Shown: positions 22,677 through 42,039 of the stretch, in pieces | Layout of the letters: each line of letters opens with the position of its first letter | Position numbering within the stretch: position 1 is the first letter of the stretch | Origin: Polyangia bacterium | GTDB taxonomy: Bacteria; Myxococcota_A; Polyangia; Palsa-1104; JAEUJZ01 | Assembly (NCBI GenBank): GCA_044222245.1 | Contig: JBGANQ010000054.1 | Location: forward strand, 813 to 64,812 | Direction: 5' to 3' | DNA length: 64,000 bases | Translations under genes and position numbers: made by a program | The notes under the pieces: model-generated | Seen by the model: the letters and a program-made list of their open reading frames with translations, nothing else | Databases searched by the model: none | Told to the model about the DNA's origin: nothing

Positions 22677-22928
22677 CGGACCTCACAAAGAGCGAAGTTG
22701 CGGCCGCGGCTCGGCCGGCCGGTCAAGACCGAGCTGCTGCGCCATTGTATCGGCGGTCGGCGGCCGGGCGCAGGCCGTATTGGCGAGCCGTCGGCCGGCG
22801 GCGGCTCACTTTGCCCTTTCGGCGCCCCCGGCGAAGAAGGTACGATAACCGCAGGCGTACTGTCGTCGCTGCGCGCGTCCTGGGCCAAGGGGCCTGGGCG
22901 GCGCCAGAGCCCAGGCGCCGCCGCGCCC

Positions 22929-27890: not shown

Positions 27891-27919
27891 TTGACGCCGC
27901 TGGTCTTTGCTATGATTAT
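27891..27919 (+). promoter_or_regulatory. Sigma70-like promoter for ncRNA unit 1
   Basis: TTGACG (27891-96), a 17-nt spacer, then GATTAT (27914-19). G27927, the first base of the RNA closing helix, lies 7 nt downstream. Confidence 0.5.
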
Positions 27920-27926
27920 ATTTTTC

Positions 27927-28054
27927 GTGTCCGGCCGCGCAGGCCCTACAAGCTATCTGGTTCAACTCCAGAATGTTCGCACTTGCGAATATCGCCGTGG
28001 TGGCAAAATCGATTCACTCGATCAAATGGCTTGCGCACTCGGACACAGATTTTG
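27927..28054 (+). ncRNA. Structured RNA unit 1: Y-RNA/YrlA-like candidate with a tRNA-like T-arm
   Basis: - Closing helices: 27927-33 pairs with 28040-46 (7 bp), then a GCC/ACT internal loop, then 27937-45 pairs with 28028-36 (9 bp including one G-U).
- Internal hairpins: TCTGG-TTCAACT-CCAGA (27956-72, a T-loop-like UUCRANY), an 8-bp hairpin at 27973-92, GCC-GTGGT-GGC, and ATCGA-TTCAC-TCGAT.
- A short U tract follows at 28050-53. Confidence 0.65.
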
Positions 28055-28149: not shown

Positions 28150-28245
28150 GCGCCCGGCCGAAGAGGCCCTACAAGCGTGCCCTAACGGGTACACCGATTT
28201 TTGGTAAATCGACAATGGCTTCTTCACTCGGGCGCAATTTTTTTT
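28150..28245 (+). ncRNA. Structured RNA unit 2: smaller paralogue of unit 1 (YrlB-like candidate)
   Basis: It has the same architecture as unit 1. 28150-56 pairs with 28229-35, there is a GCC/ACT loop, and 28160-68 pairs with 28217-25 with the G-U at the same place. There are two 6-bp hairpins (28177-92 and 28195-211), and the RNA ends in AAT8. Five base pairs differ from unit 1 by compensatory changes. Confidence 0.65.
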
Positions 28246-28296: not shown

Positions 28297-30096
28297 ATGA
28301 CCAGCACCACCACCCGCCCGCTGCCAGAGGCCCAGCTCGGGCCGGCCGAGAAGCTGCTTGATCTGGTCCTCAGCTCCGGGGCCCACCTGTGGCACAACCG
28401 CCTGGGCCAGGAGGTCGCCGACAAGTGGCAGCCGCTGATCCTGCCGCGGGCGCGCCCCGGCCGCCTGCGGTCGATCCCGCGCGGGGCGCTGCCGCCGGGG
28501 CTGTTCGTCAAGGCGGCGGTGGCGCTGTACCGGCGGCTCATCGAGATCTACAAGCTCAACAGCGAGCTGTTCGCCCACTTTGCCAGCTACGCGATCCTGG
28601 AGACCGACTGGCGCGATCTGAAGGTCGCCTGCGCGGCGCTGCTCCTGGTGCAGCCGCGGGCCGGGCTGCCGGTGCGCGGCGAAGGCGGGGCGGTCGAGTT
28701 CCACGATGACGACTACCGCGCCCTGGGCGAGGCGATGCTGCTGTTCCACCAGCAGAAGTCGACCCGCGCGATGTCGCCCAAGGCGGTGCTGCGGGTCGCT
28801 GAGCTCCTGGAGACGGCGGAGATCGCGCAGCTCAACCGCCAGGCCGGCTTTGCCGGGGCGGCCTCGCGCAAGGCGCCGCTTGGCCGCTGGCCGCAGGCGG
28901 CGCGCGCCTGGCTGCGCCTGCGCGAGCGTAACCTGCCGATGCTGCAGGGGCTGGTCAAGGCGGGCTACAAGGAGACGATCAAGAAGCTGGCGCGCAAGTG
29001 CGGCTACAAGCCCGACAGCCAGGTCTTCTTCGAGGTGCTCGGCTGGAAGCAGAAGCAGACGGCGGCCGGCCACCGCGAGGTCGGCCTGAGCGGCCTTTTG
29101 CTGCGCAAGAGCGAGCGCTTCGACGGCTTCAGCGAGCAGGAGGTCTGCGAGTACATCGTCTCGGAGAAGCTGACCTACAAGGAGGTCGTCGGCCGGCTGC
29201 CGCGCGAGCTGGGCCTGACGCCGGCGATCATGGTCGCGCTTTTGCCTTCGCTGTCCGACACCGACCTGCGGCTGCTCACCCCGACCCTGGAGGGGCTCGG
29301 GCTGCTCGCCGACGCCGAGATCCGCCGCCGCTGGGAGCGCGCCATCGCCAGCGCCACTGACCAGCGCAGCCTCAACATCGCCAAGAACGTGCGCAGCCAG
29401 GTGCTGCGCGACAAGCTGGGCGAGGCGGCCGACAACGCCGCCCGCAAGGCGGTGGCGGCGGCGACCGCGGACGCCGACCTGCGGGTGATGTTCCTCATCG
29501 ACAAGTCGGGCTCGATGCAAGGGGCGATCGAGCAGTCTAAAGAGGCGCTGTCGCGCATCCTGGCCGGCTTCCCCGCCGCCAAGCTGCACATCGCCACCTT
29601 CGACACGATGGGCACCGTGCTTGTCCCCAAGGCGGCGAGCCGGGCGGCGGTGCAGCACATGCTGCAAAGCGTCCAGGCCTCGGGCGGGACGATCCACGGC
29701 GCGGCGCTGCGCGCCCTGCACCGCAGCGGCGTACGCATCCCCGACGACGCCCTGCTGGTGGTGATCGTCGTCGGCGATGAGGACGGCGAGGACCCCACCA
29801 AGTTTGCCAGCACGTTCGCCGAGCTCGGGTACAAGCCGGCGGCGCTGGGCCTCATCGTCAGCGTGCGCTCGCGGCGGGGCAGCACCGTCAAGACCGCGGC
29901 CGGCGTGCTGCAGGTGCCGTTCTCCGAGGTGCAGGTCGACCAGTTTGACGACCCCTATCAGGTCCCGCGGGTGCTGCGGGCGATGCTCGATGCCGCCACG
30001 CCCGCGGGCGCCCCGGCGGCCAAGCCGCGCACGAGCTGGGTCGAGAAGGTGATGGCGACGCCGCTATTGCGCAAGCCGGCCGCCGCCCGTCCGTAG
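28297..30096 (+). CDS. Ro60/TROVE-like helical domain plus C-terminal vWA (MIDAS) protein
   Basis: - vWA domain: VMFLIDKSGSM...ATFD...ASGGTIHG...LLVVIVVGDEDGE.
- N-terminal ~390 aa are helical. PLGRWPQAARAWL...LVKAGYKETIKKLARKCGYKPDSQVFFEVLGWK resembles the Ro60 block WGRALRKAIADWY...[21 protein letters not shown]...ITKGW from memory.
- The domain order and length match Rsr/Ro60. Confidence 0.6.
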   Translation: MTSTTTRPLPEAQLGPAEKLLDLVLSSGAHLWHNRLGQEVADKWQPLILPRARPGRLRSIPRGALPPGLFVKAAVALYRRLIEIYKLNSELFAHFASYAILETDWRDLKVACAALLLVQPRAGLPVRGEGGAVEFHDDDYRALGEAMLLFHQQKSTRAMSPKAVLRVAELLETAEIAQLNRQAGFAGAASRKAPLGRWPQAARAWLRLRERNLPMLQGLVKAGYKETIKKLARKCGYKPDSQVFFEVLGWKQKQTAAGHREVGLSGLLLRKSERFDGFSEQEVCEYIVSEKLTYKEVVGRLPRELGLTPAIMVALLPSLSDTDLRLLTPTLEGLGLLADAEIRRRWERAIASATDQRSLNIAKNVRSQVLRDKLGEAADNAARKAVAAATADADLRVMFLIDKSGSMQGAIEQSKEALSRILAGFPAAKLHIATFDTMGTVLVPKAASRAAVQHMLQSVQASGGTIHGAALRALHRSGVRIPDDALLVVIVVGDEDGEDPTKFASTFAELGYKPAALGLIVSVRSRRGSTVKTAAGVLQVPFSEVQVDQFDDPYQVPRVLRAMLDAATPAGAPAAKPRTSWVEKVMATPLLRKPAAARP

Positions 30097-30101
30097 CGCG
30101 C

Positions 30102-31217
30102 ATGGACTTCCGCCGCTTCCTCAACAGCCCCGGGGCCGGCTCGCCCACCACTGCCGACGGCGGCGCGGGGAGCGATGAGCAGGTGCTGCCGTACTTCGGC
30201 GGGCCCTATGTCGACTCGCGCGAGCGGCGGCTGCGGCTGCGCCTGGACGGCGGCGAAAGGCCGCGGCCGGGCTTTTACCGCTTCGCGGTGGGCGGCCGCA
30301 GCGCGACCCTGCGCGGGCCGGCCGAGGCTCCGCCGCTAGAGGACCTCAAGGCGGTGCGCGGCCACCTGCTCGGGGCGCGGCTGGTCCTGCCAAGCGGCGC
30401 CGTCGAGCCGCTGTTCTGCCTGCCCGAGGAGGTCCCGCCGCGCTTCGCCCCGATCCTCGCCCGGCGGTGGCCGACCGGCGAGCTGCTCTACGACCAGCTC
30501 GAGTTCGAAGGGGACGCCGAAGAGGCGGTGCGGCGGGCCTTGCAGGATGAGCAGCCGCTCGCCGCGCTCAAGGCGGTGCCGGCCTCGCTGCGCGCCGCGT
30601 TTGCCTATACCGTGGGCGAGCGCGCGGCGCAGCGCCTGGCGGTGCCGGTGAGTCCGCTGGAGCTATTGCCCGCCATTGCCGCCATCGCCGAGCGCGGCGT
30701 CCCCGCCGCTACCGAGGCGCTGCTGGCCCTTCAGGAGGAGCGCCGCGCCTACGCGCGCAGCCGCGAGCAAGAGCTGCTGGCCGCCACCGCCGCGGCGCAG
30801 GCGGCGGCGCGCGAGCAGCAGCGCGCGCAGGCGGCGGCGGCGCGCCTCCCCGAGCACGGCCGCGCCGCGCGCCCCGGCCGCGTGCCGCCCGACCGCGGTC
30901 GCCCCGCCCCGCTGGCCGCCGAAGAGCGCGCCGAGCACGCCCTGCACGCCGCCGGGGCCACGCTCCTTGATACGCGGTCGCTCGGCCGCGATCAGCTGGA
31001 GGTGATCTATCGGTTCCACGGCCAGCGCTTCATCTCGATCGTCCAGGCCTCGACGCTGCAGGTGATCGACGCCGGGGTCTGCCTGGCCGGCGCCGACAGC
31101 CTGGTCACGCTGGAGAGCCTGCCCTCGGTGCTCAAGGAGGCGATCGAGACCCGGCGCCTGGTCATCACCCGCCGCGCACCCGGCGACGCTGACTACTATG
31201 AGGATTTCGATGACTGA
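30102..31217 (+). CDS. Hypothetical 371-aa protein (possible E2-like C-terminal domain)
   Basis: It starts 5 nt after the upstream stop. It has an N-domain, an Ala/Gln/Arg coiled-coil linker, and a C-domain reading LEVIYRFHGQRFISIVQASTLQVIDAGVCLAGADSLVTLESLPSVLKEAI. Confidence 0.7.
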   Translation: MDFRRFLNSPGAGSPTTADGGAGSDEQVLPYFGGPYVDSRERRLRLRLDGGERPRPGFYRFAVGGRSATLRGPAEAPPLEDLKAVRGHLLGARLVLPSGAVEPLFCLPEEVPPRFAPILARRWPTGELLYDQLEFEGDAEEAVRRALQDEQPLAALKAVPASLRAAFAYTVGERAAQRLAVPVSPLELLPAIAAIAERGVPAATEALLALQEERRAYARSREQELLAATAAAQAAAREQQRAQAAAARLPEHGRAARPGRVPPDRGRPAPLAAEERAEHALHAAGATLLDTRSLGRDQLEVIYRFHGQRFISIVQASTLQVIDAGVCLAGADSLVTLESLPSVLKEAIETRRLVITRRAPGDADYYEDFDD

Positions 31218-31704
31218 GAGAGCCGAGCGACCCGGCGGCGGTGCGCTGCGCGAGGTGTGCCTGCTTATCGGCCGCGGCGACGTCATCCTGTGGTCGGATG
31301 CGTCGGCAAGTCCGGTGTGGCTGCCCGACTCGCGCGCCCGCTGGGAGGCAATCTGGCACCACCGCGCCGAGCTGACCGAGATCGTCCACAGTCACCCGGT
31401 GGGCCCGCTCGCCTTCTCGGCCGAGGATGAGACGACGATGGCGGCGCTAGGCGCGGCGCTCGGCGCCGGCCTGGGGTTTGCGGTGGTCGCCCCCGGCGGC
31501 ATGATCCGGCGCCGCTACCCGCCGCGCGCTGGCGATGGGCTCGCGGCGCCGGCGCTTGACACCCAGCTTTTGCCGGCGGCCGAGCCGTGGTGGGCGGCCC
31601 TTTTGCGCCTGGCCTCGGGCATGCGCCCGGAGCCCGAGCCGCCAGACGCGGACCTTGAAGCTGCCTCAGAGCTGCCTGCTTCGCCCCCAAAGACGGAGGA
31701 CTAG
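31210..31704 (+). CDS. JAMM/MPN+ (JAB) metallopeptidase
   Basis: An upstream Glu (ALREV) plus HSHPVGPLAFSAED fit E...HxHx7Sx2D exactly. The ATG at 31210 overlaps the upstream stop by 8 nt. An alternative ATG is at 31198. Confidence 0.8.
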   Translation: MTERAERPGGGALREVCLLIGRGDVILWSDASASPVWLPDSRARWEAIWHHRAELTEIVHSHPVGPLAFSAEDETTMAALGAALGAGLGFAVVAPGGMIRRRYPPRAGDGLAAPALDTQLLPAAEPWWAALLRLASGMRPEPEPPDADLEAASELPASPPKTED

Positions 31705-31845
31705 ATGGCGACGTTGAACATCACCTACAAGTGCTGGCCGGCCCAGACTGAAGGAAGATCACGCCCTTGCGCCGCGGTGCTGCCCGCGCTCCCGCCCGCG
31801 CCGCGGCGCCGCCGACGGGCCCGGGCCGCGCGGCGGTGGATATAG
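31705..31845 (+). pseudogene. 5' stub of the Ubl-like gene, cut by IE-1
   Basis: The ATG immediately follows the JAB stop (TAGATG). MATLNITYK uses normal codons. After 31730 the reading turns into rare-codon and Arg-rich junk, with a stop at 31843-45. Not in the ORF track because it is under 60 aa. Confidence 0.6.
31714..31730 (+). repeat. Direct repeat (att core) of IE-1, left copy
   Basis: TTGaaCATCACCTACAA here versus TTGtcCATCACCTACAA at 34632-34648, which is 15/17 identity including 12 contiguous bases. Both copies are in the same reading frame (L-x-I-T-Y-K/N). Confidence 0.6.
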
Positions 31846-31891
31846 GGAGGATACGACGGGCGTGTTACGATAGCGGCGGGGGGCTCGGGTC

Positions 31892-33001
31892 ATGGGCGAC
31901 CTGGTACGACGGGGGACGAGCTTTTATGTTCGCTATCGCGACGTCGATGGCGTGCGGCGCATGCGCGCCTCGCACCAGCCGACTCGCGAGCTGGCGCGGC
32001 GCTTCCTGGTCGAGATCGAGGCGCGGATCGCCCGCGGCAAGATCGGCATCCCCGAGCCGGCGGCGCCCGCGCCTACGGTGGCCGAGCTGGTCGGCCGCTT
32101 CCTGGCCGAGTATCGCCAGCCGCGGATCAAGGATCTGCAGAAGTATCGCCGGTTTGCCACCAGCAACCTGCGACGGGCGCTGCCGCTGTTGGGCGCGCTG
32201 CGAGCCGACGCCGTAACCGCCGCCGACCTCGATCGCCTGCGCGACCAGCTGGCGCGCCGCTGCGCCCCCGGCTCGGCCGGGCTGACCTTCACGTTCCTCA
32301 AGACCGCCTTCGCGTGGGCGGCGCGCGGCGGCCTGATCGCCCGCAACCCGCTTTACCGGGTGCCGCTGCCGCCGCCGCGCGAGCCCGACATCGAGTACCT
32401 GAGCGCCGACGAGGTGACGGCGCTGCTCGCCGCCGCCGATCGGCGGGCAGCAGCCGGTGGGGTGGCCGAGCGCCTGCTGCGCGGGGCGGTGTACCTGGCG
32501 CTGCACGCCGGCCTGCGCAAGGGCGAGCTGTTCGGGCTGCGCTGGCGCGACCTCGACCTGGAGTCGCGGCGCCTGACGGTGCGTAGCAGCTTCGCCACCA
32601 CCCCCAAGGGCGGCCGGGCCCGTCACCTGCGCATCCCCGCCGTCGTCGTCCCGGTGCTGCTAGAGCTCTGCGGAAAGTGTCCGCAGACGCCGCAGGGGCT
32701 GGTGTTTCCCCGCCGCCACCGCGGCCAGTGGGGGATGTGCGCGACGACCGGCGCGATGCTCGGGCTGCCGGCGCTGCTCGCCGCCGCCGGCTGCCGGCCC
32801 GTGGGCCGCTGCTGGCACGCGCTGCGCCACACCTTCGCGTCGCACTACATCATGCAGGGCGGGAACATCCTGGCGCTGCAGAAGATCCTCGGGCACAGCG
32901 ATCTCCGCATGACCACCATCTACGCCCACCTCGCCCCGGACTTTCTCGGGGCGGAGATGGATCGCCTCAGGTTTCCGCCGCCGGACAAGCTGCCGATCTA
33001 G
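31892..33001 (+). CDS. Tyrosine recombinase/integrase (IE-1)
   Basis: ALHAGLRKGELFGLRW (catalytic R), WHALRHTFASH (HxxR) and LGHSDLRMTTIYAHL (Y). It is a clear paralogue of the integrase at 42040-43146; both begin MGDLVR. Confidence 0.9.
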   Translation: MGDLVRRGTSFYVRYRDVDGVRRMRASHQPTRELARRFLVEIEARIARGKIGIPEPAAPAPTVAELVGRFLAEYRQPRIKDLQKYRRFATSNLRRALPLLGALRADAVTAADLDRLRDQLARRCAPGSAGLTFTFLKTAFAWAARGGLIARNPLYRVPLPPPREPDIEYLSADEVTALLAAADRRAAAGGVAERLLRGAVYLALHAGLRKGELFGLRWRDLDLESRRLTVRSSFATTPKGGRARHLRIPAVVVPVLLELCGKCPQTPQGLVFPRRHRGQWGMCATTGAMLGLPALLAAAGCRPVGRCWHALRHTFASHYIMQGGNILALQKILGHSDLRMTTIYAHLAPDFLGAEMDRLRFPPPDKLPI

Positions 33002-33019
33002 CCGCCGGCGCGCCCGCCG

Positions 33020-33784
33020 CTAGAACCGCCCGCCGACCAGGACGCCGCTGCCGCCGCTCAGGGTGAGGGGGCTTATCGTCAGGCTGTTCTTGGCGTAGAT
33101 CGCCACCCGGGTGTGGGTGGCGGCGCCGACGATCATGAGCGCCAGCCCGCTGGCCTGGACCAGGCCGTCGATCGCGAGCATGGTGCCGCCGAGCTGGCTG
33201 CCGCTGCCCGACAGGTAGCCGAGCTCGAGCCAGGGCCCGATGAGCGGGATGTACAGCGGCCACAGCGCCGAGGCGGTGCCAAACGACGGCCCCGAAGCGG
33301 TGATCGAGTTGCGGACCGGCATGCCGTTTTTGTAGTACAGCGAGTCGGCATAGCTGGCGGTGAGCAGCGCCGTGAGCGACCACGACAGGCCAAGCACGGC
33401 GGCGCCGGCGATGATAAGCCGAGTGCGCGGCCGGGTGACGTAGCGCACCGCGGCGGGCCGGGCCGGGATGAGCGTCGGCTGCGTCCCGAGGTAGGGCTGC
33501 GCCGGATAGTAGGGCTGCGCCGGATAGTAGGGCTGCGCCGGATAGTAGGGCTGACCCGGGTAGCTCGGGGCCGGGTAGCTCGGGGTCGGGTAGTAGGGCT
33601 GGGCCGACTCGGGCGGCGGTGGGTATGCCGGCCCTGCTGGCGGCTGCGCCGGCTCGGTCGGCGGCGACGGCGCGGACTGGGTTACGTACGTGCCGGAGTC
33701 CTGCTGCGCCTCGGCGGAGCTGCAGAGGCTCACTCCCAATCCGACCAGCGTCAGGCTGACTACGATGGCTTTTCGCGCTTGCAT
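33020..33784 (-). CDS. Secreted/membrane protein with a Pro/Tyr-rich repeat region
   Basis: Signal peptide, (PYYPAQ)x3-4 encoded by an 18-bp tandem repeat (~33492-33550), and hydrophobic C-terminal segments. Confidence 0.65.
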   Translation of the reverse strand: MQARKAIVVSLTLVGLGVSLCSSAEAQQDSGTYVTQSAPSPPTEPAQPPAGPAYPPPPESAQPYYPTPSYPAPSYPGQPYYPAQPYYPAQPYYPAQPYLGTQPTLIPARPAAVRYVTRPRTRLIIAGAAVLGLSWSLTALLTASYADSLYYKNGMPVRNSITASGPSFGTASALWPLYIPLIGPWLELGYLSGSGSQLGGTMLAIDGLVQASGLALMIVGAATHTRVAIYAKNSLTISPLTLSGGSGVLVGGRF

Positions 33785-33957
33785 GGGGGGTCCTTGGTGG
33801 AAGTTTAAGGCGGCGCGCTGCGCAGTTTCAGTTTATTTATCGGCCGGCGCGCGATCCAGTGCTTGCCTTTTGTCCGCAAAGTGCAGATTGCTCCGGTGGC
33901 GGCGCGAGCAAAAACTTATAACCGCTGACAACTCAATCAAGTTATGAGCACTGCACC

Positions 33958-34479
33958 ATGACCTTTACCCTCCATGATACCGCCTACCGCACCGATACCC
34001 GGGAAGCCAAGGAGGCCATGTATGCCGACCTGCGCACGCAGCTGCAGGGCCTGCTGCACGGCGAGAGCGACTGGATCGCCAACACCGCCAACTTCAGCTC
34101 CTTGGTCTTTCACAGCGTCCCCGGGCTGAACTGGGCTGGCTTTTATTTCTTGAAGACCGCGGACGAGCTGGTGCTCGGCCCCTTCCAGGGCAAGCCGGCC
34201 TGCATCCGCATCCAGAAGGGCCGCGGCGTCTGCGGCTCGACCGTGGTAAAGCGAGCGCCGATCGTCGTGCCCGACGTGCACGCCTTCCCCGGTCACATCG
34301 CCTGCGACTCCAGCTCGCGCTCGGAGCTGGTGGTGCCCATATTCGCCCGCGGCGAGGTCGTCGGGGTGTTCGATCTGGACAGCCCGCTGCTGGGGCGGTT
34401 TGATGACACCGACGCGCAGGGGGTCCAGTCGCTCGTGCAGCTGCTGGAGCAGACGCTGACGGCGCCGACCAGCCCGTAG
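33958..34479 (+). CDS. msrC: GAF-domain free methionine-(R)-sulfoxide reductase
   Basis: NWAGFYF...LVLGPFQGKPACIRIQKGRGVCG...VPDVHAFPGHIACDSSSRSELVVPI matches the YebR/fRMsr family pattern. Confidence 0.8.
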   Translation: MTFTLHDTAYRTDTREAKEAMYADLRTQLQGLLHGESDWIANTANFSSLVFHSVPGLNWAGFYFLKTADELVLGPFQGKPACIRIQKGRGVCGSTVVKRAPIVVPDVHAFPGHIACDSSSRSELVVPIFARGEVVGVFDLDSPLLGRFDDTDAQGVQSLVQLLEQTLTAPTSP

Positions 34480-34518
34480 TCCGATGACCGTGAGGCTGCA
34501 TCCAGCAGCTTGGTCTAG

Positions 34519-34585
34519 CGATACTAGGAACGATATTAAGAACGATACTAAGAACGATACTAAGAGGGATACAAGATGGATACGG
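34519..34585. repeat. Five and a half tandem 12-bp AT-rich units (CGATACTAAGAA type)
   Basis: cgatactaggaa / cgatattaagaa / cgatactaagaa / cgatactaagag / ggatacaagatg / gatacgg. They lie 47-113 bp inside the right repeat of IE-1. Confidence 0.85.
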
Positions 34586-34631
34586 CGCGGCCGAGACTCG
34601 CGGCGCAGCGACGCGCTGCGCCGGCCAGCGC

Positions 34632-34648
34632 TTGTCCATCACCTACAA
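34632..34648 (+). repeat. Direct repeat (att core) of IE-1, right copy
   Basis: TTGtcCATCACCTACAA; see 31714-31730. Confidence 0.6.
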
Positions 34649-34913
34649 CGGCACCTCGGCCGACTACCCGCAGCCTATAGATGGCGAGCTCTCGGATCGC
34701 GAGCTGCGTCGCATCGGGGAGGAGCTTGTGCGCTCCGGCGACCTGCCCGGCCTGTGGCTCAAGGATCTGCCGCACCGGGTCTTTGAGCAGTTCGTGGTCG
34801 ATCGCATCCACTCGCCCAAGGGCGGCCTGCGGATCTACCTGCGGCCCAAGGTCCCGTTCGGGAACGGACCCGCGCGAGGGTCGTGGCGAGCGCCGCGGCC
34901 CCAGGGGCGCTAG
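34632..34913 (+). CDS. Small Ubl-like (beta-grasp candidate) protein, 3' part of the gene split by IE-1
   Basis: A TTG-initiated ORF. (L)SITYNGTSADYPQP...GGLRIYLRPKVPFG is followed by a 16-aa Arg/Pro tail. The stop is 3 nt before the E1-like ATG. Confidence 0.6.
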   Translation: MSITYNGTSADYPQPIDGELSDRELRRIGEELVRSGDLPGLWLKDLPHRVFEQFVVDRIHSPKGGLRIYLRPKVPFGNGPARGSWRAPRPQGR

Positions 34914-34916
34914 GCG

Positions 34917-35489
34917 ATGCGGCTCCTGTTCTGCGGGGTGGGGGCGCTCGGCTCGACCGCGGTCGTGTTGTGCCGCAGCCTGGGCGTCGAGCTGGCGCTT
35001 TGCGACTGCGACCGCGTGGAGACCAAGAACCTGCACGCCCAGGCGTTCGTCAAGCAGTCGCTGGGCAAGAACAAGGCCGAGGCGCTGAAGCTGCAGCTCG
35101 GGAACTTCTATGGCCTGAAGTGCGAGGCGTTCGGCGTGCGGCTGACCGCGACCAATGTGGACGCGCTGGCCCAGGGGGCGGACCTGCTCATCGACTGCTT
35201 TGACAACCAGGCGAGCCGCCAGCTGCTGGCCGACTACGCCCGCCGCACCGGCAAGCCGCTAGTGCACGCGGCGATGGCGGCCGATGGGCAGTTTGGCCTG
35301 GTGCGGTGGGACGAGCGCTTTGTCGCCGATGCCGAGGACCACGCCGGTCAGGCCACCTGCGAGGGAGGGGCGCACCTGCCGTTTATCGGGCTGCTCGCCG
35401 CGACCCTGGCGCGCGTCATTCAGGACTTTGTCCTGCACGGCCAGCGGCACGACTGCATGGTCGCGCTGCGCTCGGTGACCAGCCAGTAG
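34917..35489 (+). CDS. Minimal E1/ThiF/MoeB-like adenylation-domain protein (190 aa)
   Basis: LLFCGVGALGSTAVVLCRSLGVE-LALCDCDRVETKNL (Rossmann G-x-G-x-x-G plus D-x-D-x-V-E-x-x-N-L), GKNKAEAL, and LLIDCFDN (Mg-binding Asp). The usual NLxRQ Arg is Ala here (NLHAQ). Confidence 0.75.
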   Translation: MRLLFCGVGALGSTAVVLCRSLGVELALCDCDRVETKNLHAQAFVKQSLGKNKAEALKLQLGNFYGLKCEAFGVRLTATNVDALAQGADLLIDCFDNQASRQLLADYARRTGKPLVHAAMAADGQFGLVRWDERFVADAEDHAGQATCEGGAHLPFIGLLAATLARVIQDFVLHGQRHDCMVALRSVTSQ

Positions 35490-35549: not shown

Positions 35550-36410
35550 TCAGCCGGTGGGCGGCCGGGGCGGCGGCAGGCCGTCGCGCAGCGGCGGCAG
35601 GCGGCGCCAGGGGACGCGGCGCTGCGGGACGACAGCGGCGTCGCGCAGCGGCGGCAGGGCGTCCCAGCCGCCGGGGCGGGCGACCGACGGGCTCTGCGGC
35701 GGCTCACCCGGGCGCAGCGGCGGCAGCGGTCCCACGCCGCGCGCAGGCCCCTGGGGCAGCTCGGCCGCGGCGGCGCGCAGCGGCGGCAGGACCTGCCACG
35801 ACACCGCGGTCAGCGCCGCCTCCGACACCGGGCGCAGCGGCGGCAGCTTCTGCCACGGCGTAAGCGCGCTGGGCGGTAGCAGCGGCGGCAGCGCTGGACC
35901 GCTGGCGGGGGCGGGCGTCGCGGCCAGCGGCGGCGCCGGCGGCGCGACCAGGCGCAGCGGCGGCAGCGACTCCCACTTGACCGGGACCCGCGGCGGCGGC
36001 AGCGGTGGCCCCGGGCGCAGCGGCGGCAGCGCCGTCCACGCGACCAGGGCGCGCGGCGGCGGCGGCGGGCTCAGCTCGTCACGCAGCGGCGGCAGCAGCG
36101 CCCACTCCGGGTGCGAGCGGGGCTGCGCCCGCACCGTGCCGAGCCAGGACAGCCCGCGCAGCCCGGGCTGGCGCGAGCGGGCCATCTCCGGCAGCAGGTC
36201 GAGCACCCCCTGCGCCGGCGGCTGCGCCGACTCCATGCGAAACAGGAAATCATCCAGCGTCTGCACGGAGAAGTGCCAGCGATCCTGCTCGGGGGCCGGC
36301 AGCTCGCCGCGCGCCAGGGTGCGCAGGACCACGGTCTTGTCGTCATGCGGCAGCCCCGCCAGGTTGCGACGAAACTGCGGGCTGTAGCGGAACCACTGCT
36401 CGACGTTGGA
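35550..36410 (-). pseudogene. 3' fragment of the gene split by IE-2 (W-x-LPPLR repeat C-terminal domain)
   Basis: The frame is open from the att core: SNVEQW-FRYSPQFRRNLAGLPHDDKTVVLRTLARGELP...ESAQ. About 9 LPPLR-type repeats follow. There is no ATG upstream, and the track ORF starts at an internal GTG (36332). Confidence 0.75.
36392..36410. repeat. Direct repeat (att core) of IE-2, left copy
   Basis: ACCACTGCTCGACgTTGGA here versus ACCACTGCTCGACaTTGGA at 43294-43312 (18/19). Both encode S-N-V-E-Q-W on the minus strand. Confidence 0.8.
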
Positions 36411-36536: not shown

Positions 36537-38723
36537 CTACGGCCTGGGCTTGGGCCGGGTGAGCATGGACACCGTCTTGACCAGCTCGCTCACGTCCACC
36601 GGCTTGGCGATGTGCGCCTGGAAGCCCGCCTGCAGCGCCTCCTCGGTATCGGCGGTGCGCGCGAAGGCGGTGAGGGCGATCGCCGGGATGAGCTTCTGCC
36701 CCGGGCTCTTGGCCTCGCGAGCGCGCAGCGCCCGCACAAGCTGGTAGCCGTCGCCCTCGGGCATCGCGATGTCGCTGATGAGCACATCGGGCGTAAGCTG
36801 GCGCAGGATCTCCAGCGCCGACGCCCCCGAGCTCGCCGTGATGACCTCGGCCCCGTGCTGGGTCAGGGTGGGCCCGAGGAAGGCCAGCATGTCCGGCTGA
36901 TCATCGACAAGCAGGATCTGCACCCCGCGCAGCGTCGCCTTGAGCTCCGAGGGGACCGGCGGTCGCTCTTTGGGCGGCGCGGAGCTGCTGGGTGGCGCGC
37001 TGGCCCGCTGGTCGCGCGGCAGGTGCACGACGAAGGTGCTGCCGAGCCCCTCGCCGGGGCTCTGGGCCGACACCGAGCCGCCGTGCATCTGCACCAGGTG
37101 GTGCACGATCGCCAGCCCGAGGCCCAGGCCGCCGTGCCGCCGCGAGGTGGTGCCGTCGGCCTGCCGGAAGCGGTCAAAGACATAGGGCAGAAAGTCCGGC
37201 GCGATGCCCTGGCCGGTGTCGGAGATGGTGAGGACTACATGGTGCTGATCGCCGCCCACCCAGACCTCGATGGCGCCGCCGCGGGGGGTGAACTTGGTGG
37301 CGTTGGTAAGCAGGTTCCAGATGACCTGCTGCAGGCGCCCGGCGTCGCCCAGGACCATCTCGGTGCCGCCGAGGAAGGTGGCGCTCAGCTGCAGCCCCTT
37401 GGCCTCGGCGGCCGGGCGCACCGAGTCGATGGCGACGTTTACCACCGGGACCAGGTTGAGCGGCCGCAGCTCGAGCGTGATCTTGCCCGAGACGATGCGC
37501 GAGATGTCGAGGATCTCGTCGATCAGCTTGGCCTGCACGAGCGAGTTGCGCTCGATGACCTCCACTGCGCGCGGGATGATCTCGGGCTTGGGCGAGTCGC
37601 GTAGGAGCCGCGCCCAGCCGAGCACGGCGCTCAGCGGGGTGCGCAGCTCGTGCGATAGGGTGGCCAGGAAGATGTCCTTGGCCTGGTTGGCCGCCTGCGC
37701 CGCGTCGCGGGCCTGGCGCTCGCGCACTAGCAGCTCGGCCTGGGCGCGCTCGGCGCGCTTGCGGTCCATGATGTCGGTCAGGCTGACCACGCAGCCGATG
37801 ATGCGGTTGTCGGCGGCGCGAATCGGCCCGGCGCTGAGCAGCATGTGCAGGGGGCTGCGGCCGCCGTGCAGCTGGAAGATCACCTCGCGCCCGGTGTACC
37901 TTTTGCCCTGCAGGAAATCCTCTACCGTCAGGCGGCTGCCGGTGGCCGGCTCGCGGTCGGCCAGCGTCGACTCGGCCGGCGCCAGATACAGCTGGAACCG
38001 CTCGTCAAACGCCGAGAGCAGCAGGTTGCCCTCGCACAGCGACTGCGCGCACTGGCTGGCGCGGGTGATAAGTCCCGCCTCATTGCAGACAAAGATCGCC
38101 TCGGCTGCCTGATCGAGGATCGAGATCGCCAGGCGCTGCGACTCAAGGACCGCCTGACTGTGCTTCTGCTCGCGCAGATCGGTGACGATCAAGCACGCGC
38201 AGTCCAGGCCATCGACGTTGAGCGGGCTGAAAGACAGAAAGACCGGCAGCACCATGCCTTCGACGACCAGCTGCACCTCGCCCTTGCTGCCCACGCGCAT
38301 CCCGTGCTCGAGCAGCGCCGCGCACAGGGCGCGATCGGCGGGCTGGACAAAGGCTCGCATCTCCAGCCCGATCACCTGCGCCGCCGGCAGACCCACAAGG
38401 CGGGTGAACGCCGGGTTGGCGTACAGGATTCGTCCCTCCGCGCTCAGCGTCACCGCCCCTTCGCTCATCGCCTCGACCAGGACCGCGTAGGGGTGCTCGG
38501 CGCCACTCAGCATGTGGATGCGCGGACCGTGGCGGCTGCTCACCGCCAGAGCATCGATCTCGCCCTCGCGGATCGCCCGCAACAGATCTTCGGCGTCCTG
38601 GAGCCGCGCCCGCATGGAGAGCACTTCCTGCGCCGACAGGTCGATGGACTCAGCGCTCTCGGCAGGCTCGTGCCCAGCCGAGAGCGCCGCTAGCTCGGCT
38701 TCTGATTTACTGGCGGGAGTCAT
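36537..38723 (-). CDS. PAS-PAS hybrid sensor histidine kinase with a C-terminal receiver
   Basis: H-box LATLSHELRTPLSAVLGW, an N/G-box HATPase (NLLTNATKFT...ISDTGQGI...GGLGLGLAIV), and a REC domain (ILLVDDQPDM...VLISDIAMPEGDGY...ALTA). Confidence 0.9.
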   Translation of the reverse strand: MTPASKSEAELAALSAGHEPAESAESIDLSAQEVLSMRARLQDAEDLLRAIREGEIDALAVSSRHGPRIHMLSGAEHPYAVLVEAMSEGAVTLSAEGRILYANPAFTRLVGLPAAQVIGLEMRAFVQPADRALCAALLEHGMRVGSKGEVQLVVEGMVLPVFLSFSPLNVDGLDCACLIVTDLREQKHSQAVLESQRLAISILDQAAEAIFVCNEAGLITRASQCAQSLCEGNLLLSAFDERFQLYLAPAESTLADREPATGSRLTVEDFLQGKRYTGREVIFQLHGGRSPLHMLLSAGPIRAADNRIIGCVVSLTDIMDRKRAERAQAELLVRERQARDAAQAANQAKDIFLATLSHELRTPLSAVLGWARLLRDSPKPEIIPRAVEVIERNSLVQAKLIDEILDISRIVSGKITLELRPLNLVPVVNVAIDSVRPAAEAKGLQLSATFLGGTEMVLGDAGRLQQVIWNLLTNATKFTPRGGAIEVWVGGDQHHVVLTISDTGQGIAPDFLPYVFDRFRQADGTTSRRHGGLGLGLAIVHHLVQMHGGSVSAQSPGEGLGSTFVVHLPRDQRASAPPSSSAPPKERPPVPSELKATLRGVQILLVDDQPDMLAFLGPTLTQHGAEVITASSGASALEILRQLTPDVLISDIAMPEGDGYQLVRALRAREAKSPGQKLIPAIALTAFARTADTEEALQAGFQAHIAKPVDVSELVKTVSMLTRPKPRP

Positions 38724-38772
38724 GGGTTTTCCCTGTCTCGGACTTCTCTGGGCCCTTAGGAGCTAGGCAGCG

Positions 38773-39255
38773 TTATTTCACCAGATGAACCCCGCAGACA
38801 TCGAGCCCGACCAGCACCCGCTCGGTATTGGACAGATCGCCGATGATCTTCTTGATGGGCGAGGGCAGCTTGCGCACCAGGGTGGGAATCGCCACGATCT
38901 GGTCGGTCGCCGCCAGCTGCGGCTTTTGAATCAGATCGATGATCTCAAGCTCGATGGTGTACTTGGTCGCCAGGTGCTCATCGCAGAGCTTCTTCAGGTT
39001 GGCCAGCGCGGCCAGGCTGCGCGGAGTCTGGCCGGCGATGTACAGGCGCAGGGTGACCGCCTCCTTGGGCGCCGCCGCGGCCCCCGCGGACGGCGCCGCG
39101 GGCCCGTCGTCCACCGGCGGCCGGGGAGGGCTGGACTTGGTCGCCGCGGTGCGGGCGCTGCTCGGCCCCTTGACGGCCGCCATCTTATCCGACTTCTTGG
39201 CTGCAGTCTTATCTGCAGCCTTGTCGTTCTTCTTGTCGGTAGTCAAAGATTTCAT
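38773..39255 (-). CDS. kaiB: KaiB with a ~65-aa Lys/Ala/Pro-rich N-terminal extension
   Basis: The core [27 protein letters not shown]...[47 protein letters not shown] is very close to cyanobacterial KaiB. Its ATG overlaps the kaiC stop (ATGA). Confidence 0.9.
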
Positions 39256-41027: not shown

Positions 41028-41177
41028 AAATTCTCCTCAAGGTCGTCAGGCCATCCAGCGACGCTGGAGTGTAGGGCAACGTCAGTCGAACACACCTATC
41101 GAACCATAATAGCAACATCTACGGCATAAACAACCTCCGTGAGACGTAAAAAGCAGCCTCGCAGGGCTTTCTGTTCC

Positions 41178-41276
41178 GGTCTGGCCGGTCTGGCCGGTCT
41201 GGCTGGTCTGGCCGGTCTGGCTGGTCTGGCCGGTCTGGCCGGTCTGGCCGGTCTGGCCGGTCTGGCCGGTCTGGCT
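41178..41276. repeat. Eleven tandem 9-bp units (GGTCTGGCC, three GGTCTGGCT variants)
   Basis: Counted directly. The array lies 151-249 bp upstream of the kaiC start codon. Confidence 0.9.
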
Positions 41277-41533
41277 CAACTTGGTTCCTCGGCTCGTAGT
41301 GGCCCTAGGGTAAATACTAGCTCAACTCGCAAAGCTGCTCCCTAAAAGAGGCTCCCGCGGCGCCCGGCATTCCCTGCGGGCGGACTCCCAAGCATCTTGA
41401 GGGCTTGAGTGCTTGGGATGTTCAGAGCTTCAAGCTCTGGGGTCTTTGGGAGCGGCCAGGCGACTCGTTTTTTTCTCGACTGCCCGCCGGCGGCCACACA
41501 AAGCTGCGCGGGAAGATTTGTCTTTCTAGATAG

Positions 41534-41560
41534 TGGAAACCACTTGTATAATCGTCGCGC
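41534..41560 (+). promoter_or_regulatory. Putative promoter/operator of the excisionase-like gene (near-leaderless)
   Basis: TATAAT is at 41547-52 with TG immediately upstream. The ATG at 41561 is only 8 nt downstream. The palindrome GTGGAAACCAC (41534-44) sits in the spacer. Confidence 0.35.
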
Positions 41561-41983: not shown

Positions 41984-42039
41984 CCCCGGGCCGGGACGCC
42001 CTGCCGCCAGCTCGCCGCGGGCCCCGAGGCTGCCCGCGC

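What the first reader, a model, noticed from the sequence alone, without database searches (positions are those of the whole stretch)
28297..35489. Candidate new system: Ro60/TROVE-vWA protein coupled in one operon to a JAMM peptidase, a Ubl-like protein and a minimal E1
Once IE-1 is conceptually removed, five ORFs are packed with spacings of +5, -8, 0 and +3 nt, which implies translational coupling.

1. A 599-aa helical-plus-vWA protein whose architecture and some sequence blocks resemble Ro60/Rsr.
2. A 371-aa unknown protein.
3. A JAMM/MPN+ peptidase with a perfect E...HxHx7Sx2D motif.
4. A ~96-aa protein with a beta-grasp-like beginning (ITYNG) and a ...RIYLRPKVPFG end plus a tail.
5. A 190-aa ThiF/E1 adenylation domain.

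Established knowledge covers the parts separately. Ro60 with Y RNA acts in RNA quality control and is usually linked to RNA-repair genes. E1/Ubl/JAB sets occur in bacterial ubiquitin-like conjugation (Bil/Bub-type, CBASS Cap2/Cap3) and in sulfur-carrier pathways. I do not know of a described operon that joins the two.

The locus sits in an accessory, element-targeted region, which fits a conflict or defence role. One possibility is Ubl modification controlled by, or acting on, an RNA-sensing RNP, or on the vWA protein.
Basis: partly seen in the sequence, partly recalled or inferred. Interest (0 to 1): 0.9.

Follow-up and report, generated by a model that had tools for sequence, protein, structure and literature searches.

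The report
Ro60–Y RNA locus with ubiquitin-like module
A gene cluster found in myxobacteria, a few other bacteria and giant phages joins a Ro60-like RNA-surveillance protein and its tRNA-mimicking Y RNAs to a ubiquitin-like protein, its activating enzyme and a trimming peptidase; I found no description of this coupling, and in this genome a small mobile element has split the ubiquitin-like gene.

Summary
Five tightly spaced genes encode a helical+vWA protein, an unknown 371-aa protein, a JAMM peptidase, a small protein ending in an invariant RPKVPFG plus a tail, and a 190-aa ThiF-type E1. A 2,918-bp integrase element splits the small gene at a 12-bp duplicated core. A 93%-identical relative has the empty site.

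- Pfam TROVE does not hit the protein.
- The only full-length structural matches of its AlphaFold model are Ro60/TROVE proteins.
They have the Y RNA closing helix, the Ro-binding 5' motif and, in orthologues, a YrlA-type tRNA-like module with strong covariation.

The five genes plus Y-like RNAs recur in Myxococcota, an actinomycete, a planctomycete MAG and at least 15 large phage genomes. In the phages they usually sit inside big tRNA gene arrays.

No E2 was found, and the beta-grasp fold could not be tested. The most likely function is RNA (tRNA) surveillance by a Ro60-like/Y RNA particle coupled to E1-driven Ubl conjugation. A sulfur-carrier role is the main rival. A dedicated anti-phage role is not supported.

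The parts
27891..27919 (+). Sigma-70-like promoter (TTGACG-17-GATTAT). It places a transcription start at about 27926-27927, the 5' end of Y RNA 1.
   Evidence: The sequence is invariant in the close relatives L001 and L004.
27927..28046 (+). Y RNA-like gene 1 (120 nt). It has an 8-bp closing stem, an internal loop, a 9-bp helix, and a four-hairpin cloverleaf-like (tRNA-like) module.
   Evidence: CM R1 scores 76.8 bits, but this sequence was in the model's training set. The MFE z-score is -6.2. Rfam YrlA itself does not hit this copy.
28150..28235 (+). Y RNA-like gene 2 (86 nt, short YrlB-like form). Its 5' strand GGCCGAAG matches the published Rsr-binding motif GNCGAAN0-1G. A T8 run follows at about 28238-28245.
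   Evidence: CM R1 scores 59.4 bits, E 6e-9, and this copy was not in the training set. The z-score is -5.8. The motif is from PMC4201824. Its stem covaries with copy 1.
28297..30096 (+). Ro60-like protein (599 aa): a helical N-domain of about 390 aa plus a vWA domain with an intact MIDAS site (D402, S404, S406, T465, D494).
   Evidence: Pfam VWA_2. The MIDAS residues are invariant in 60 homologues. The AF2 model has pLDDT 80. Foldseek top full-length hits are 9kop, 2i91, 9l5y and 1yvr, all Ro60/TROVE, and phage Ro-like/TROVE proteins.
30102..31217 (+). ORF2 (371 aa), a family-specific partner. It has a beta-rich N-domain (25-133), long helices (138-248), and a C-terminal alpha-beta4-alpha domain with an invariant Cys327 (D-x-G-x-C-L).
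   Evidence: No Pfam, NCBIfam or PADLOC hit. Cys327 is invariant. The AF2 model has pLDDT 87.8 and pTM 0.82. Foldseek finds no PDB match with E below 0.01 and no E2/UBC hit.
31210..31704 (+). JAMM/MPN+ peptidase (164 aa from ATG 31210; an alternative ATG is at 31198).
   Evidence: Pfam Prok-JAB. E15, H60, H62, S70 and D73 are invariant in 50 sequences.
31705..31730 (+). 5' stub of the Ubl gene (ATG..AACATCACCTACAA), ending in the left copy of the 12-bp att core (31719-31730).
   Evidence: comparison with the empty site in L001.
31731..34648 (.). IE-1, a 2,918-bp integrative element. It carries a tyrosine integrase (31892-33001, +), a Pro/Tyr-rich membrane protein (33020-33784, -), a GAF-domain protein (33958-34479, +), four 12-nt tandem repeats (34519-34566), and the right att core (34637-34648).
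   Evidence: The empty site is seen in L001.
34632..34913 (+). 3' part of the Ubl gene. It now opens with TTG-TCC supplied by the element and has no obvious ribosome-binding site. It encodes ...RIYLRPKVPFG plus a 16-aa tail. The intact gene is 31705-31730 joined to 34649-34913, giving 96 aa.
34917..35489 (+). Minimal ThiF/MoeB-type E1 (190 aa). It has a GxGxxG loop, K53, D96 and an invariant T147-C148 in the crossover-loop motif TCEGGxxLP. It lacks the N-terminal Arg-finger segment and the NLxRQ Arg.
   Evidence: Pfam ThiF 1e-23. The best PDB sequence matches are Uba4, ThiF and MoeB. Conservation across 35 sequences. A weak alignment places TCEGG on the Uba4 segment QTSCGEAG.

Best explanation
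The locus is a conserved module built around a divergent Ro60/Rsr-like ring protein and its Y RNAs. It is coupled to a ubiquitin-like (Ubl) activation and processing set and one family-specific partner, ORF2.

Shown here:
- The gene set and order.
- Conservation across bacterial phyla and large phages.
- The Ro60-like fold and intact MIDAS site.
- Y RNA-like genes with covarying helices and a Ro-binding-type motif.
- Intact JAMM and E1 motifs.
- A Ubl-type invariant C-terminal Gly followed by disposable tails.

Inferred mechanism:
1. The Y RNAs dock on the Ro60-like ring through the conserved GGCCGA / CACUCGG bulged helix. Their tRNA-like module gates or tethers the ring, which inspects structured RNAs. 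These are most likely tRNAs, given the phage tRNA-array context.
2. The JAMM peptidase trims the Ubl precursor after PFG, and probably also reverses conjugates.
3. The minimal E1 adenylates the exposed Gly and takes it onto its invariant crossover-loop Cys.
4. With no recognisable E2, the Ubl passes either directly to a lysine, as in archaeal SAMP/UbaA, Thermus TtuB/TtuC and Urm1/Uba4, or via the invariant Cys of ORF2.
5. The target is the RNP itself, ORF2, or a client protein held by the RNP. The vWA MIDAS site is the likely docking point for ORF2 or the Ubl.

In this window the Ubl gene is split by IE-1, which removes its translational coupling to JAB. The module may therefore be impaired in this genome.
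For: Anatomy and the empty site.

Conservation:
- vWA-ORF2-JAB is contiguous in every bacterial locus that reaches far enough, and Ubl-E1 is always paired.
- Contiguous five-gene operons occur in L001, L025, in Lipingzhangella halophila, a Planctomycetes MAG and GCA_009612935.1. L035 holds ORF2-JAB-Ubl-E1 with a Y-like RNA and a cut upstream ORF that was not checked for vWA homology.
- All five genes are in phage Rctr197k and in 14 of 18 IMG/VR contigs of 67-442 kb.

Ro60-likeness. MIDAS site.

Y RNAs:
- The motif lies upstream of the vWA gene in most loci.
- Rfam YrlA hits the M. xanthus orthologue at 43.8 bits, E 1e-8.
- RNAalifold finds 31 pairs, 18 of them with compensatory changes.
- 95.4% of cells are paired; 18 covarying pairs against 8.3 +/- 1.9 in shuffles (0 of 500), and at most 10 in slid controls.
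- The covariance model finds the second window copy and extra copies that were not in its training set, including phage copies.
- The motif matches GNCGAAN0-1G of PMC4201824.

Ubl: RPK[VT]PFG is invariant, with tails of 0-61 aa. E1 and JAB motifs.

tRNA context: 10 of 17 viral loci carry 12-41 tRNA genes within 10 kb, and 3 carry a tmRNA. Rctr197k has more than 45 tRNA genes. L025 has 12 or more.

RNA-end-healing type neighbours: a Metallophos gene next to the Y RNA in M. stipitatus, and AAA_33 plus Thg1 in L035.
Against: - There is no sequence-level TROVE signal, either directly or through distant relatives.
- The Ro60 matches have only moderate TM-scores (0.38-0.56) and rmsd of 8-12 A.
- Rfam YrlA is below its gathering score in M. 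xanthus and does not hit the window copies at all.
- No Y-like RNA was detected next to the gene in five Archangium-type loci or in L009, L017 and L018.
- Ubl-E1 is not within 10 kb in six loci.
- The Ubl fold was not tested.
- The E1 lacks both the N-terminal Arg-finger segment and the NLxRQ Arg.
- No E2 or E3 is present, and ORF2 has no significant structural relative.
- Nothing here shows RNA binding, adenylation or conjugation.
Confidence: 0.6

Rival explanations
1. The small protein is a sulfur carrier, not a protein modifier. It would be trimmed by the JAMM peptidase, adenylated and thiocarboxylated through the E1, and would donate sulfur for thiolation of tRNA or Y RNA presented by the Ro60-like RNP. 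ORF2 would act as the RNA-binding or sulfur-transfer partner. Known models for this are TtuB/TtuC, Urm1/Uba4, and QbsE/QbsD-type trimming.
For: - The closest solved relatives of the E1 by sequence are Uba4, ThiF and MoeB.
- The crossover-loop Cys is invariant, and Uba4 uses the equivalent Cys in its thioester step (PMC6007339 is listed but was not read).
- No E2 is present.
- The module is tied to tRNA-like RNAs and tRNA arrays.
- From my own knowledge, JAMM trimming of sulfur carriers is known (QbsD, Mec+).
Against: - No rhodanese, cysteine desulfurase or PP-loop thiolase is encoded in or next to the module in any locus examined.
- ORF2 has no ATP-binding or rhodanese signature.
- The C-terminus is a single Gly after Phe, not the usual Gly-Gly.
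- Some tails are 45-61 aa long, which is more typical of Ubl precursors.
Confidence: 0.2
2. It is an anti-phage defence system, in line with the first reader's leaning. The Ro60-like RNP would sense phage RNA and trigger Ubl conjugation onto phage or host proteins, as in Bil-type systems or CBASS Cap2/Cap3.
For: - E1+JAB+Ubl sets do act in defence, and the E1 shows generic similarity to PADLOC E1-E2 models.
- One locus (L034) has TIR, LD_cluster3 and IS110 neighbours.
- The distribution outside Myxococcota is patchy and looks transfer-like.
Against: - None of the other four proteins gives a significant match to a PADLOC model; the only other hit is a chance-level one for JAB, E 0.037.
- The module is present in almost every sampled Myxococcaceae and Archangiaceae genome at 66-70% identity, which looks core rather than variable.
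- Complete copies are carried by many large phages inside their tRNA/tmRNA islands. That fits a phage-beneficial RNA-maintenance or counter-defence role better.
Confidence: 0.12
3. The parts are only neighbours. The vWA protein would be a generic helical-vWA protein, the upstream RNAs would be tRNA-derived relics, and the E1/Ubl/JAB set would serve an unrelated pathway.
For: - Pfam TROVE does not hit.
- In Myxococcaceae the Ubl-E1 pair is separated from the other three genes by 4.4-9.2 kb of unrelated genes.
Against: - The same five families stay linked in the same order in Myxococcota, Actinomycetota, Planctomycetota and 15 or more phage genomes.
- The RNAs carry a non-tRNA closing helix with the Ro-binding-type motif and strong covariation.
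- Ro60/TROVE proteins are the only full-length structural matches in two libraries.
Confidence: 0.03

Closest known systems
Bacterial Rsr (Ro60) with Y RNAs: YrlA/YrlB, the rsr-yrlBA-rtcBA operon of Salmonella, and the Rsr/Y RNA/PNPase machine of Deinococcus (PMC4201824)
   Same: - A ring-type helical domain plus a vWA/MIDAS protein.
- One long tRNA-mimicking and one short Y RNA encoded next to it.
- A 5' GNCGA-type motif in a bulged closing helix.
- Presence in phages as well as bacteria.
   Different: - The protein is not detectable as TROVE by sequence.
- The RNAs fall below the Rfam YrlA gathering score.
- The operon partners are ORF2, JAMM, Ubl and E1, not RtcB/RtcA or PNPase tethering.
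E1-only Ubl / sulfur-carrier systems: Haloferax SAMP/UbaA/HvJAMM1 (PMC4443979), Thermus TtuB/TtuC, Urm1/Uba4 (PMC7527816, PMC6007339)
   Same: - A MoeB/ThiF-type E1 with a crossover-loop Cys.
- A small protein activated at a C-terminal Gly.
- A JAMM peptidase.
- No E2 or E3.
- A functional tie to tRNA.
   Different: - The E1 is a 190-aa minimal version with no rhodanese domain, no zinc motifs, no N-terminal Arg finger and no NLxRQ Arg.
- The Ubl ends in PFG and has no Pfam match.
- The set is linked to a Ro60-like RNP and ORF2.
Bacterial Bil, Bub and CBASS Cap2/Cap3 ubiquitin-like conjugation systems (PMC10557695, PMC11601596, PMC10097602)
   Same: E1 adenylation domain, JAB peptidase, and a Ubl or target C-terminus activated for conjugation, encoded in an operon.
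   Different: - No E2 domain was found (Pfam, PADLOC and Foldseek were all negative).
- There is no cGAS-like or other known effector.
- It is carried by phages.
- It is coupled to an RNP.
FtsH-type vWA-MoxR ternary systems with a full Ubl conjugation set (PMC7159879)
   Same: A vWA protein encoded together with JAB, E1 and Ubl, in bacteria with complex life styles.
   Different: Those systems have MoxR, FtsH, an E2 fused to the Ubl, a RING E3 and caspase-like effectors, and no Ro60-like domain or Y RNA. None of those extra parts is present here.
Rea1/Midasin MIDAS domain binding the UBL domains of Ytm1 and Rsa4 in ribosome assembly (my own knowledge; not checked here)
   Same: A MIDAS site that takes an acidic residue of a ubiquitin-like domain as ligand in an RNP context. 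This is a precedent for a vWA-Ubl contact.
   Different: It is a eukaryotic AAA+ machine with non-covalent UBL domains and no E1 or JAMM. The analogy is a hypothesis only.

Membership tests
Ro60/Rsr (TROVE + vWA) proteins | TROVE domain recognisable by sequence (Pfam PF05731) | tested here: not met
   There is no TROVE hit at E up to 1 for the window protein. There is none at E up to 10 in 60 family members. There is none in distant relatives found by an exhaustive phmmer search with the N-domain. PDB sequence search hits only the vWA part.
Ro60/Rsr (TROVE + vWA) proteins | Overall fold: helical-repeat domain followed by a vWA domain, superposable on solved Ro60 | tested here: met
   The AF2 model has pLDDT 80. 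The top full-length Foldseek PDB hits are 9kop (Trove domain), 2i91 and 1yvr (Xenopus Ro60) and 9l5y (Thermus phage Ro60): E 2e-7 to 2e-5, 508-572 aligned columns, TM 0.35-0.52. The top BFVD hits are Ro-like/TROVE phage proteins, with TM up to 0.56. The TM-scores are moderate, so this indicates remote homology, not identity of fold detail.
Ro60/Rsr (TROVE + vWA) proteins | vWA domain with a MIDAS motif | tested here: met
   Pfam VWA_2, VWA and VWA_CoxE all hit. D402-x-S404-x-S406, T465 and D494 are invariant in 60 homologues.
Ro60/Rsr (TROVE + vWA) proteins | Cognate Y RNA encoded nearby and bound by the protein | tested here: inconclusive
   The genomic half is met: Y-like RNA genes lie adjacent in the window and in most bacterial and several phage loci. 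Physical binding cannot be tested with these tools.
YrlA / bacterial Y RNA (Rfam RF02553) | Score at or above the Rfam gathering threshold (69 bits) | tested here: not met
   The M. xanthus orthologue scores 43.8 bits, E 1e-8, over the full model. The window copies give no YrlA hit at E up to 10.
YrlA / bacterial Y RNA (Rfam RF02553) | Closing helix formed by the 5' and 3' ends, carrying the 5' GNCGAAN0-1G Rsr-binding motif | tested here: met
   Window Y2, L025 and L034 carry GCCGAA-type motifs. Myxococcus has GGCCGAC and window Y1 has GGCCGCG. The motif definition is from PMC4201824. The two closing helices are 99% and 96% paired, with 7 covarying pairs.
YrlA / bacterial Y RNA (Rfam RF02553) | tRNA-like module (T-arm GGUUCGAAUCC, acceptor-like hairpin, D-arm) | tested here: met
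   The canonical T-arm and D-arm sequences are present in the Myxococcus, Pyxidicoccus, Corallococcus, L025, L033 and L034 copies. The tRNA model hits the L034 copy at 30.2 bits. Window Y1 has a diverged four-hairpin version. Window Y2 lacks the module, like YrlB.
E1-E2-JAB Ubl conjugation systems (Bil, Bub, CBASS type II) | E2/UBC-like domain with a catalytic Cys | tested here: not met
   No Prok-E2 or UQ_con Pfam hit and no PADLOC hit for ORF2. The confident ORF2 model has no E2/UBC match in the PDB; its best E-value is 0.049, to exosome cap proteins. The invariant Cys327 keeps a non-canonical carrier role possible.
E1-E2-JAB Ubl conjugation systems (Bil, Bub, CBASS type II) | ThiF-type adenylation domain and JAMM peptidase | tested here: met
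   ThiF scores 1e-23 and Prok-JAB 2e-6. The catalytic motifs are invariant family-wide.
Ubiquitin-like / sulfur-carrier beta-grasp proteins | Beta-grasp fold | not tested
There is no Pfam hit in the window protein or in 2,079 family clusters. A profile search against PDB sequences gave nothing.
Ubiquitin-like / sulfur-carrier beta-grasp proteins | Conserved C-terminal Gly exposed directly or after peptidase trimming, encoded next to its E1 | tested here: met
   RPK[VT]PFG is invariant. The tails are 0 aa in L035 and L046 and up to 61 aa elsewhere, and are unrelated in sequence. The gene is always immediately upstream of the E1 gene in bacteria.
MoeB/ThiF/Uba4-type E1 | ATP-site residues: Gly loop, N-terminal Arg finger, NLxRQ Arg, Lys, Asp | tested here: inconclusive
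   The Gly loop, K53 and D96 are invariant. The NLxRQ Arg is Ala, Ser or Thr in all 35 sequences, and the N-terminal Arg-finger segment is absent. A near-invariant Lys37 four residues upstream may compensate, but that is an inference.
PRTRC (ParB-related, ThiF-related cassette) | PRTRC ThiF at the NCBIfam cutoff, plus PRTRC proteins A-F and a ParB homologue | tested here: not met
   TIGR03736 scores 39.5 bits against a cutoff of 144.75. No other PRTRC model hits any of the five proteins.

The most novel reading that the evidence does not exclude
A Ro60-like/Y RNA particle acts as the substrate-selecting arm of a ubiquitin-like conjugation pathway. The RNP would recognise damaged or foreign tRNA-like RNA, and the Ubl, activated by a minimal E1 with no canonical E2, would be attached to the RNP, to ORF2 or to a protein bound to the captured RNA. 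The vWA MIDAS site, whose ligand in Ro60 has been unknown for decades, would dock the Ubl or ORF2. Giant phages would carry the same pathway to protect or police their own tRNA pools. This would be the first RNA-surveillance-coupled Ubl system in prokaryotes and their viruses.
Probability: 0.35. Interest if true: 0.95.

Novelty: new variant of a known kind. Interest (0 to 1): 0.86.

Why it matters
- **An open question about Ro60.** Ro60 and Y RNAs are conserved from bacteria to humans. Ro60 is a major lupus and Sjogren autoantigen. What its vWA/MIDAS domain binds, and how the particle signals, remain open questions. This conserved operon names candidate partners: ORF2, a Ubl, an E1 and a JAMM peptidase. 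It occurs in a genetically tractable organism, Myxococcus xanthus.
- **More Ro60/Y RNA systems than thought.** Genome surveys that start from the TROVE Pfam domain may have missed this Ro60/Y RNA clade.
- **A new branch of prokaryotic Ubl systems.** It is E2-less, tied to RNA rather than to known defence effectors, and common in large phages next to their tRNA and tmRNA islands. That points to a role in the tRNA-centred arms race between phages and hosts.

Tried and rejected
1. **ORF2 C-terminal domain as a minimal E2.** The invariant DAG[VI]CL resembles the UBC motif G-x-ICLDIL. A confident AF2 model gave no E2/UBC/RWD hit in the PDB, so I keep this only as a speculative non-canonical carrier.
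2. **TROVE homology by sequence.** Pfam on the window protein, on 60 members and on distant relatives from an exhaustive N-domain search were all negative. I could not obtain canonical TROVE sequences for a profile-profile test.
3. **Known-system labels.** PADLOC gave only generic E1-E2 similarity for the E1. NCBIfam PRTRC and 6A-MBL hits were far below their cutoffs. PHROGs matched only a vWA-region hit to phrog_850, 'RNA-binding protein'.
4. **Structure prediction of the Ubl.** A Ubl profile against PDB sequences gave only noise.
5. **Rfam on the window.** There were no hits at gathering or E-value thresholds. The Y RNAs were found by eye from the conserved CACTCGG motif and then modelled.
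6. **Origin of the 4.4-9.2 kb islands between JAB and Ubl in other myxobacteria.** I asked whether they arose by integration at the same att core. There is no second core copy next to JAB and no related integrase, so this is unsupported.
7. **Source record of the window.** A look-up through the 100%-identical ORF2 (P0121) found nothing on record.
8. **Literature.** Five full-text searches found no paper linking bacterial Ro60/Y RNA to Ubl, E1 or JAB genes. Burroughs and Aravind 2016 (NAR) and Sim et al. 2020 (Annu Rev Microbiol) are not held, so prior mention there cannot be excluded.

Full report
**1. The observation**

- vWA protein, 28297-30096.
- +5 nt, then ORF2, 30102-31217.
- -8 nt, then JAB from ATG 31210 to 31704.
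- 0 nt, then a stub starting at ATG 31705 (MATLNITYK).
- The remainder of the small ORF, 34632-34913.
- +3 nt, then the E1, 34917-35489.

The interruption is a precise 2,918-bp insertion. The 12-bp core CATCACCTACAA occurs at 31719-31730 and again at 34637-34648, flanked inside the element by about 18-bp imperfect inverted repeats. A metagenome scaffold whose vWA protein is 93% identical (L001) shows the empty site ...TAGATGGCCATCTTGAACATCACCTACAACGGC... It also shows the uninterrupted operon of 601, 377, 165, 97 and 190 aa.

The element carries a tyrosine integrase, a Pro/Tyr-rich membrane protein and a GAF protein. Its right end recreates an in-frame TTG-Ser-ITYNG opening, but there is no obvious ribosome-binding site and no promoter-like site. 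The Ubl gene, and the E1 gene coupled to it, may therefore be poorly expressed in this genome.

**2. The proteins**

- *Domains.* Pfam confirms VWA_2, Prok-JAB and ThiF. ORF2 and the small protein have no family in Pfam, NCBIfam, PHROGs or PADLOC.
- *JAB.* E15, H60, H62, S70 and D73 are invariant across 50 bacterial and viral sequences.
- *E1.* Across 35 sequences the Gly loop, D30, D32, N38, Q42, K53, D96 and T147-C148 are invariant.
  - The NLxRQ arginine is Ala, Ser or Thr in every member, and Lys37, four residues upstream, is 94% conserved. This is a family trait, not decay.
  - The protein starts at the first beta-strand, so it also lacks the N-terminal Arg-finger segment.
  - Its best solved relatives by sequence are Uba4, ThiF and MoeB.
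  - The motif TCEGGxxLPxIG lines up, weakly, with the Uba4 segment QTSCGEAGIMGPVVG. From my own recollection, not checked here, that stretch is the crossover loop with the Cys Uba4 uses for its thioester.
- *Small protein.* It ends in an invariant RPK[VT]PFG, followed by 0 to 61 unrelated residues. L035 and L046 stop exactly at the Gly, and phage Rctr197k adds 61 aa. This is the signature of a C-terminally processed Ubl or sulfur carrier. Its fold could not be tested.

**3. Is the 599-aa protein Ro60-like?**

By sequence, no. TROVE is not detected in it, in 60 homologues, or in distant relatives from an exhaustive N-domain search.

By structure, yes, with moderate scores. The AF2 model (pLDDT 80) has Ro60/TROVE proteins as its only full-length matches.
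- In the PDB these are 9kop, 2i91, 9l5y and 1yvr, with 508-572 aligned columns and E down to 2e-7. vWA-only hits span about 190 columns.
- In BFVD the top hits include the Ro-like RNA-binding protein of Gordonia phage VanLee and a TROVE protein of a crAss-like phage.

The MIDAS residues are invariant.

**4. The missed component: Y RNAs**

The 495-nt region upstream of the vWA gene is AT-rich. Among close relatives it contains long invariant stretches (87% mean column identity), and it contains an internal duplication.

A 7-mer from it, CACTCGG, recurs upstream of the vWA gene in most loci from three phyla. In Myxococcus and others it closes an RNA of about 135 nt with these parts:
- a 5' strand GCGCCCGGCCGAC...;
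- a canonical T-arm (GCGGGTTCGAATCCCGC);
- an acceptor-like hairpin;
- a D-arm (GTAGCTCAGCGGTAGAGC).

This is the architecture of bacterial YrlA Y RNAs.

Supporting results:
- Rfam YrlA matches the M. xanthus copy end to end at 43.8 bits (E 1e-8), below the gathering score of 69.
- The 5' motif corresponds to the Rsr-binding GNCGAAN0-1G of Chen et al. 2014.
- RNAalifold on 15 sequences gives 31 pairs, 18 of them with compensatory changes.
- Pair counting gives 95.4% paired cells and 18 covarying pairs, against 8.3 +/- 1.9 in shuffles (0 of 500) and at most 10 in slid controls.
- A covariance model built from these sequences finds the second, shorter window copy, which was not in the training set (59.4 bits). 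It also finds extra upstream copies in Myxococcus-group loci, a copy in L035, and copies in phage loci.

The window copies are 27927-28046 (tRNA-like) and 28150-28235 (short, followed by T8). They fold with z-scores of -6.2 and -5.8. A promoter-like site at 27891-27919 places a transcription start at the first base of copy 1.

**5. Distribution**

- The vWA family has more than 900 clusters, at 66-70% identity across Myxococcaceae and Archangiaceae.
- In 28 genome loci, vWA-ORF2-JAB is always contiguous and Ubl-E1 is always paired.
- The two blocks abut in L001 and in a Polyangiaceae MAG. In Archangium, Myxococcus and Corallococcus they are separated by 4.4-9.2 kb of differing genes.
- Contiguous five-gene operons also occur in Lipingzhangella halophila (Actinomycetota), a Planctomycetes MAG and another genome.
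- Phage Rctr197k (197 kb) encodes all five on one strand amid more than 45 tRNA genes.
- Of 18 IMG/VR contigs (67-442 kb) found with ORF2, 14 carry all five in the same order. Ten of the 17 scanned have 12-41 tRNA genes within 10 kb, and three have a tmRNA.

**6. ORF2**

The model is confident (pLDDT 87.8, pTM 0.82). It shows a beta-rich N-domain, long helices, and a C-terminal alpha-beta4-alpha domain carrying the invariant Cys327. It has no significant PDB neighbour. The best hits, exosome cap and OB-fold proteins at E of 0.05 or worse, are only a weak lead towards RNA binding. No E2 is hit.

**7. Interpretation**

The module is a divergent Ro60/Y RNA particle coupled to an E2-less Ubl activation and trimming set.

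I favour conjugation directed by, or acting on, the RNP. Transfer would be E1-only or via ORF2, as in SAMP/UbaA, TtuB/TtuC or Urm1/Uba4. The MIDAS site is the likely docking point. I put this at about 0.6 including the identity claims, and lower for the mechanism alone.

The main rival is a sulfur-carrier role in RNA thiolation (about 0.2). Its weakness is that no sulfur-transfer or thiolase genes are present.

A dedicated anti-phage role (about 0.12) fits poorly with near-core status in Myxococcaceae and with carriage by phages. Mere adjacency is effectively excluded.

**8. Novelty**

No paper in the held library links bacterial Ro60/Y RNA to Ubl, E1 or JAB genes. The nearest described vWA-plus-Ubl system, the FtsH ternary systems, has MoxR, FtsH, E2 and RING components that are absent here.

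I file it as a new variant of the Ro60/Y RNA kind. The stronger reading is that it is a new type of RNA-coupled Ubl pathway.

Noticed in passing
window 31731-34648 (IE-1): A very small integrative element: integrase, a Pro/Tyr-rich membrane protein and a GAF protein. It targets the conserved codons N-I-T-Y-N at the 5' end of the Ubl gene. Four 12-nt tandem repeats (CGATACTAAGAA-like) sit at 34519-34566, near its right end. No related integrase and no second att core was seen at this position in 16 other myxobacterial loci.
   Followed up: partly
window 41100-43450: A second integrase gene (42043-43146, minus strand) is 53% identical to the IE-1 integrase. Next to it are an AT-rich stretch, about 11 tandem copies of GGTCTGGCC (41178-41275) and a small excisionase-like ORF (41561-41983). 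This is probably a second related element beside kaiC.
   Followed up: no
window 35550-36332 (-): Immediately downstream of the E1 gene, on the other strand, lies a 260-aa ORF. It is made of about a dozen proline-rich repeats with the motif LPPLR. Its function is unknown.
   Followed up: no
window 36537-41027 (-) and 22698-25328 (+): ORFs whose translations look like KaiC, KaiB and a PAS histidine kinase with a receiver domain lie just downstream of the module. An ORF that looks like a family-B DNA polymerase lies upstream. These labels are by eye and were not scanned.
   Followed up: no
L003 8806-8931, 8960-9667, 9707-9838 and 992-1126; the same layout in L011, L014-L016, L019-L024, L027, L028, L030, L031: Myxococcus-group genomes have a second Y-like RNA about 0.9 kb upstream of the first. 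A calcineurin-like metallophosphoesterase gene lies between them (checked in L003). M. stipitatus has a third copy 9 kb away. A phosphoesterase would fit RNA-end healing.
   Followed up: partly
L035 3935-5157: In a distant metagenomic version, the E1 gene is followed by an AAA_33 (polynucleotide-kinase-like) gene and a Thg1-family 3'-5' polymerase gene. This is a tRNA 5'-end repair pair.
   Followed up: no
L025 5891-6237 and 12526-14600; L036/L037 (phage Rctr197k); L039, L043, L045: The module sits inside large tRNA gene arrays in a Polyangiaceae MAG and in many large phages. Three viral loci also encode a tmRNA within 10 kb.
   Followed up: partly
L036 9400-9852 (Rctr197k_234, minus strand): The GenBank annotation of phage Rctr197k calls a minus-strand hypothetical gene here. 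tblastn shows a plus-strand ORF2 homologue at about 8974-9876, so the record is probably mis-annotated. The vWA gene is listed there only as a misc_feature.
   Followed up: partly
L021 (BNCN01000002.1, labelled Comamonas sp. KCTC 72670) and L004 (labelled Pseudomonadota bacterium): Both records carry Myxococcus-like or window-like versions of the module, at 82% and 93% protein identity. The organism labels are probably wrong or outdated.
   Followed up: no
L034 13577-14315: One non-myxobacterial carrier has TIR_2 and LD_cluster3 genes and an IS110 transposase within a few kb of the module. This is the only defence-island-like context seen.
   Followed up: no
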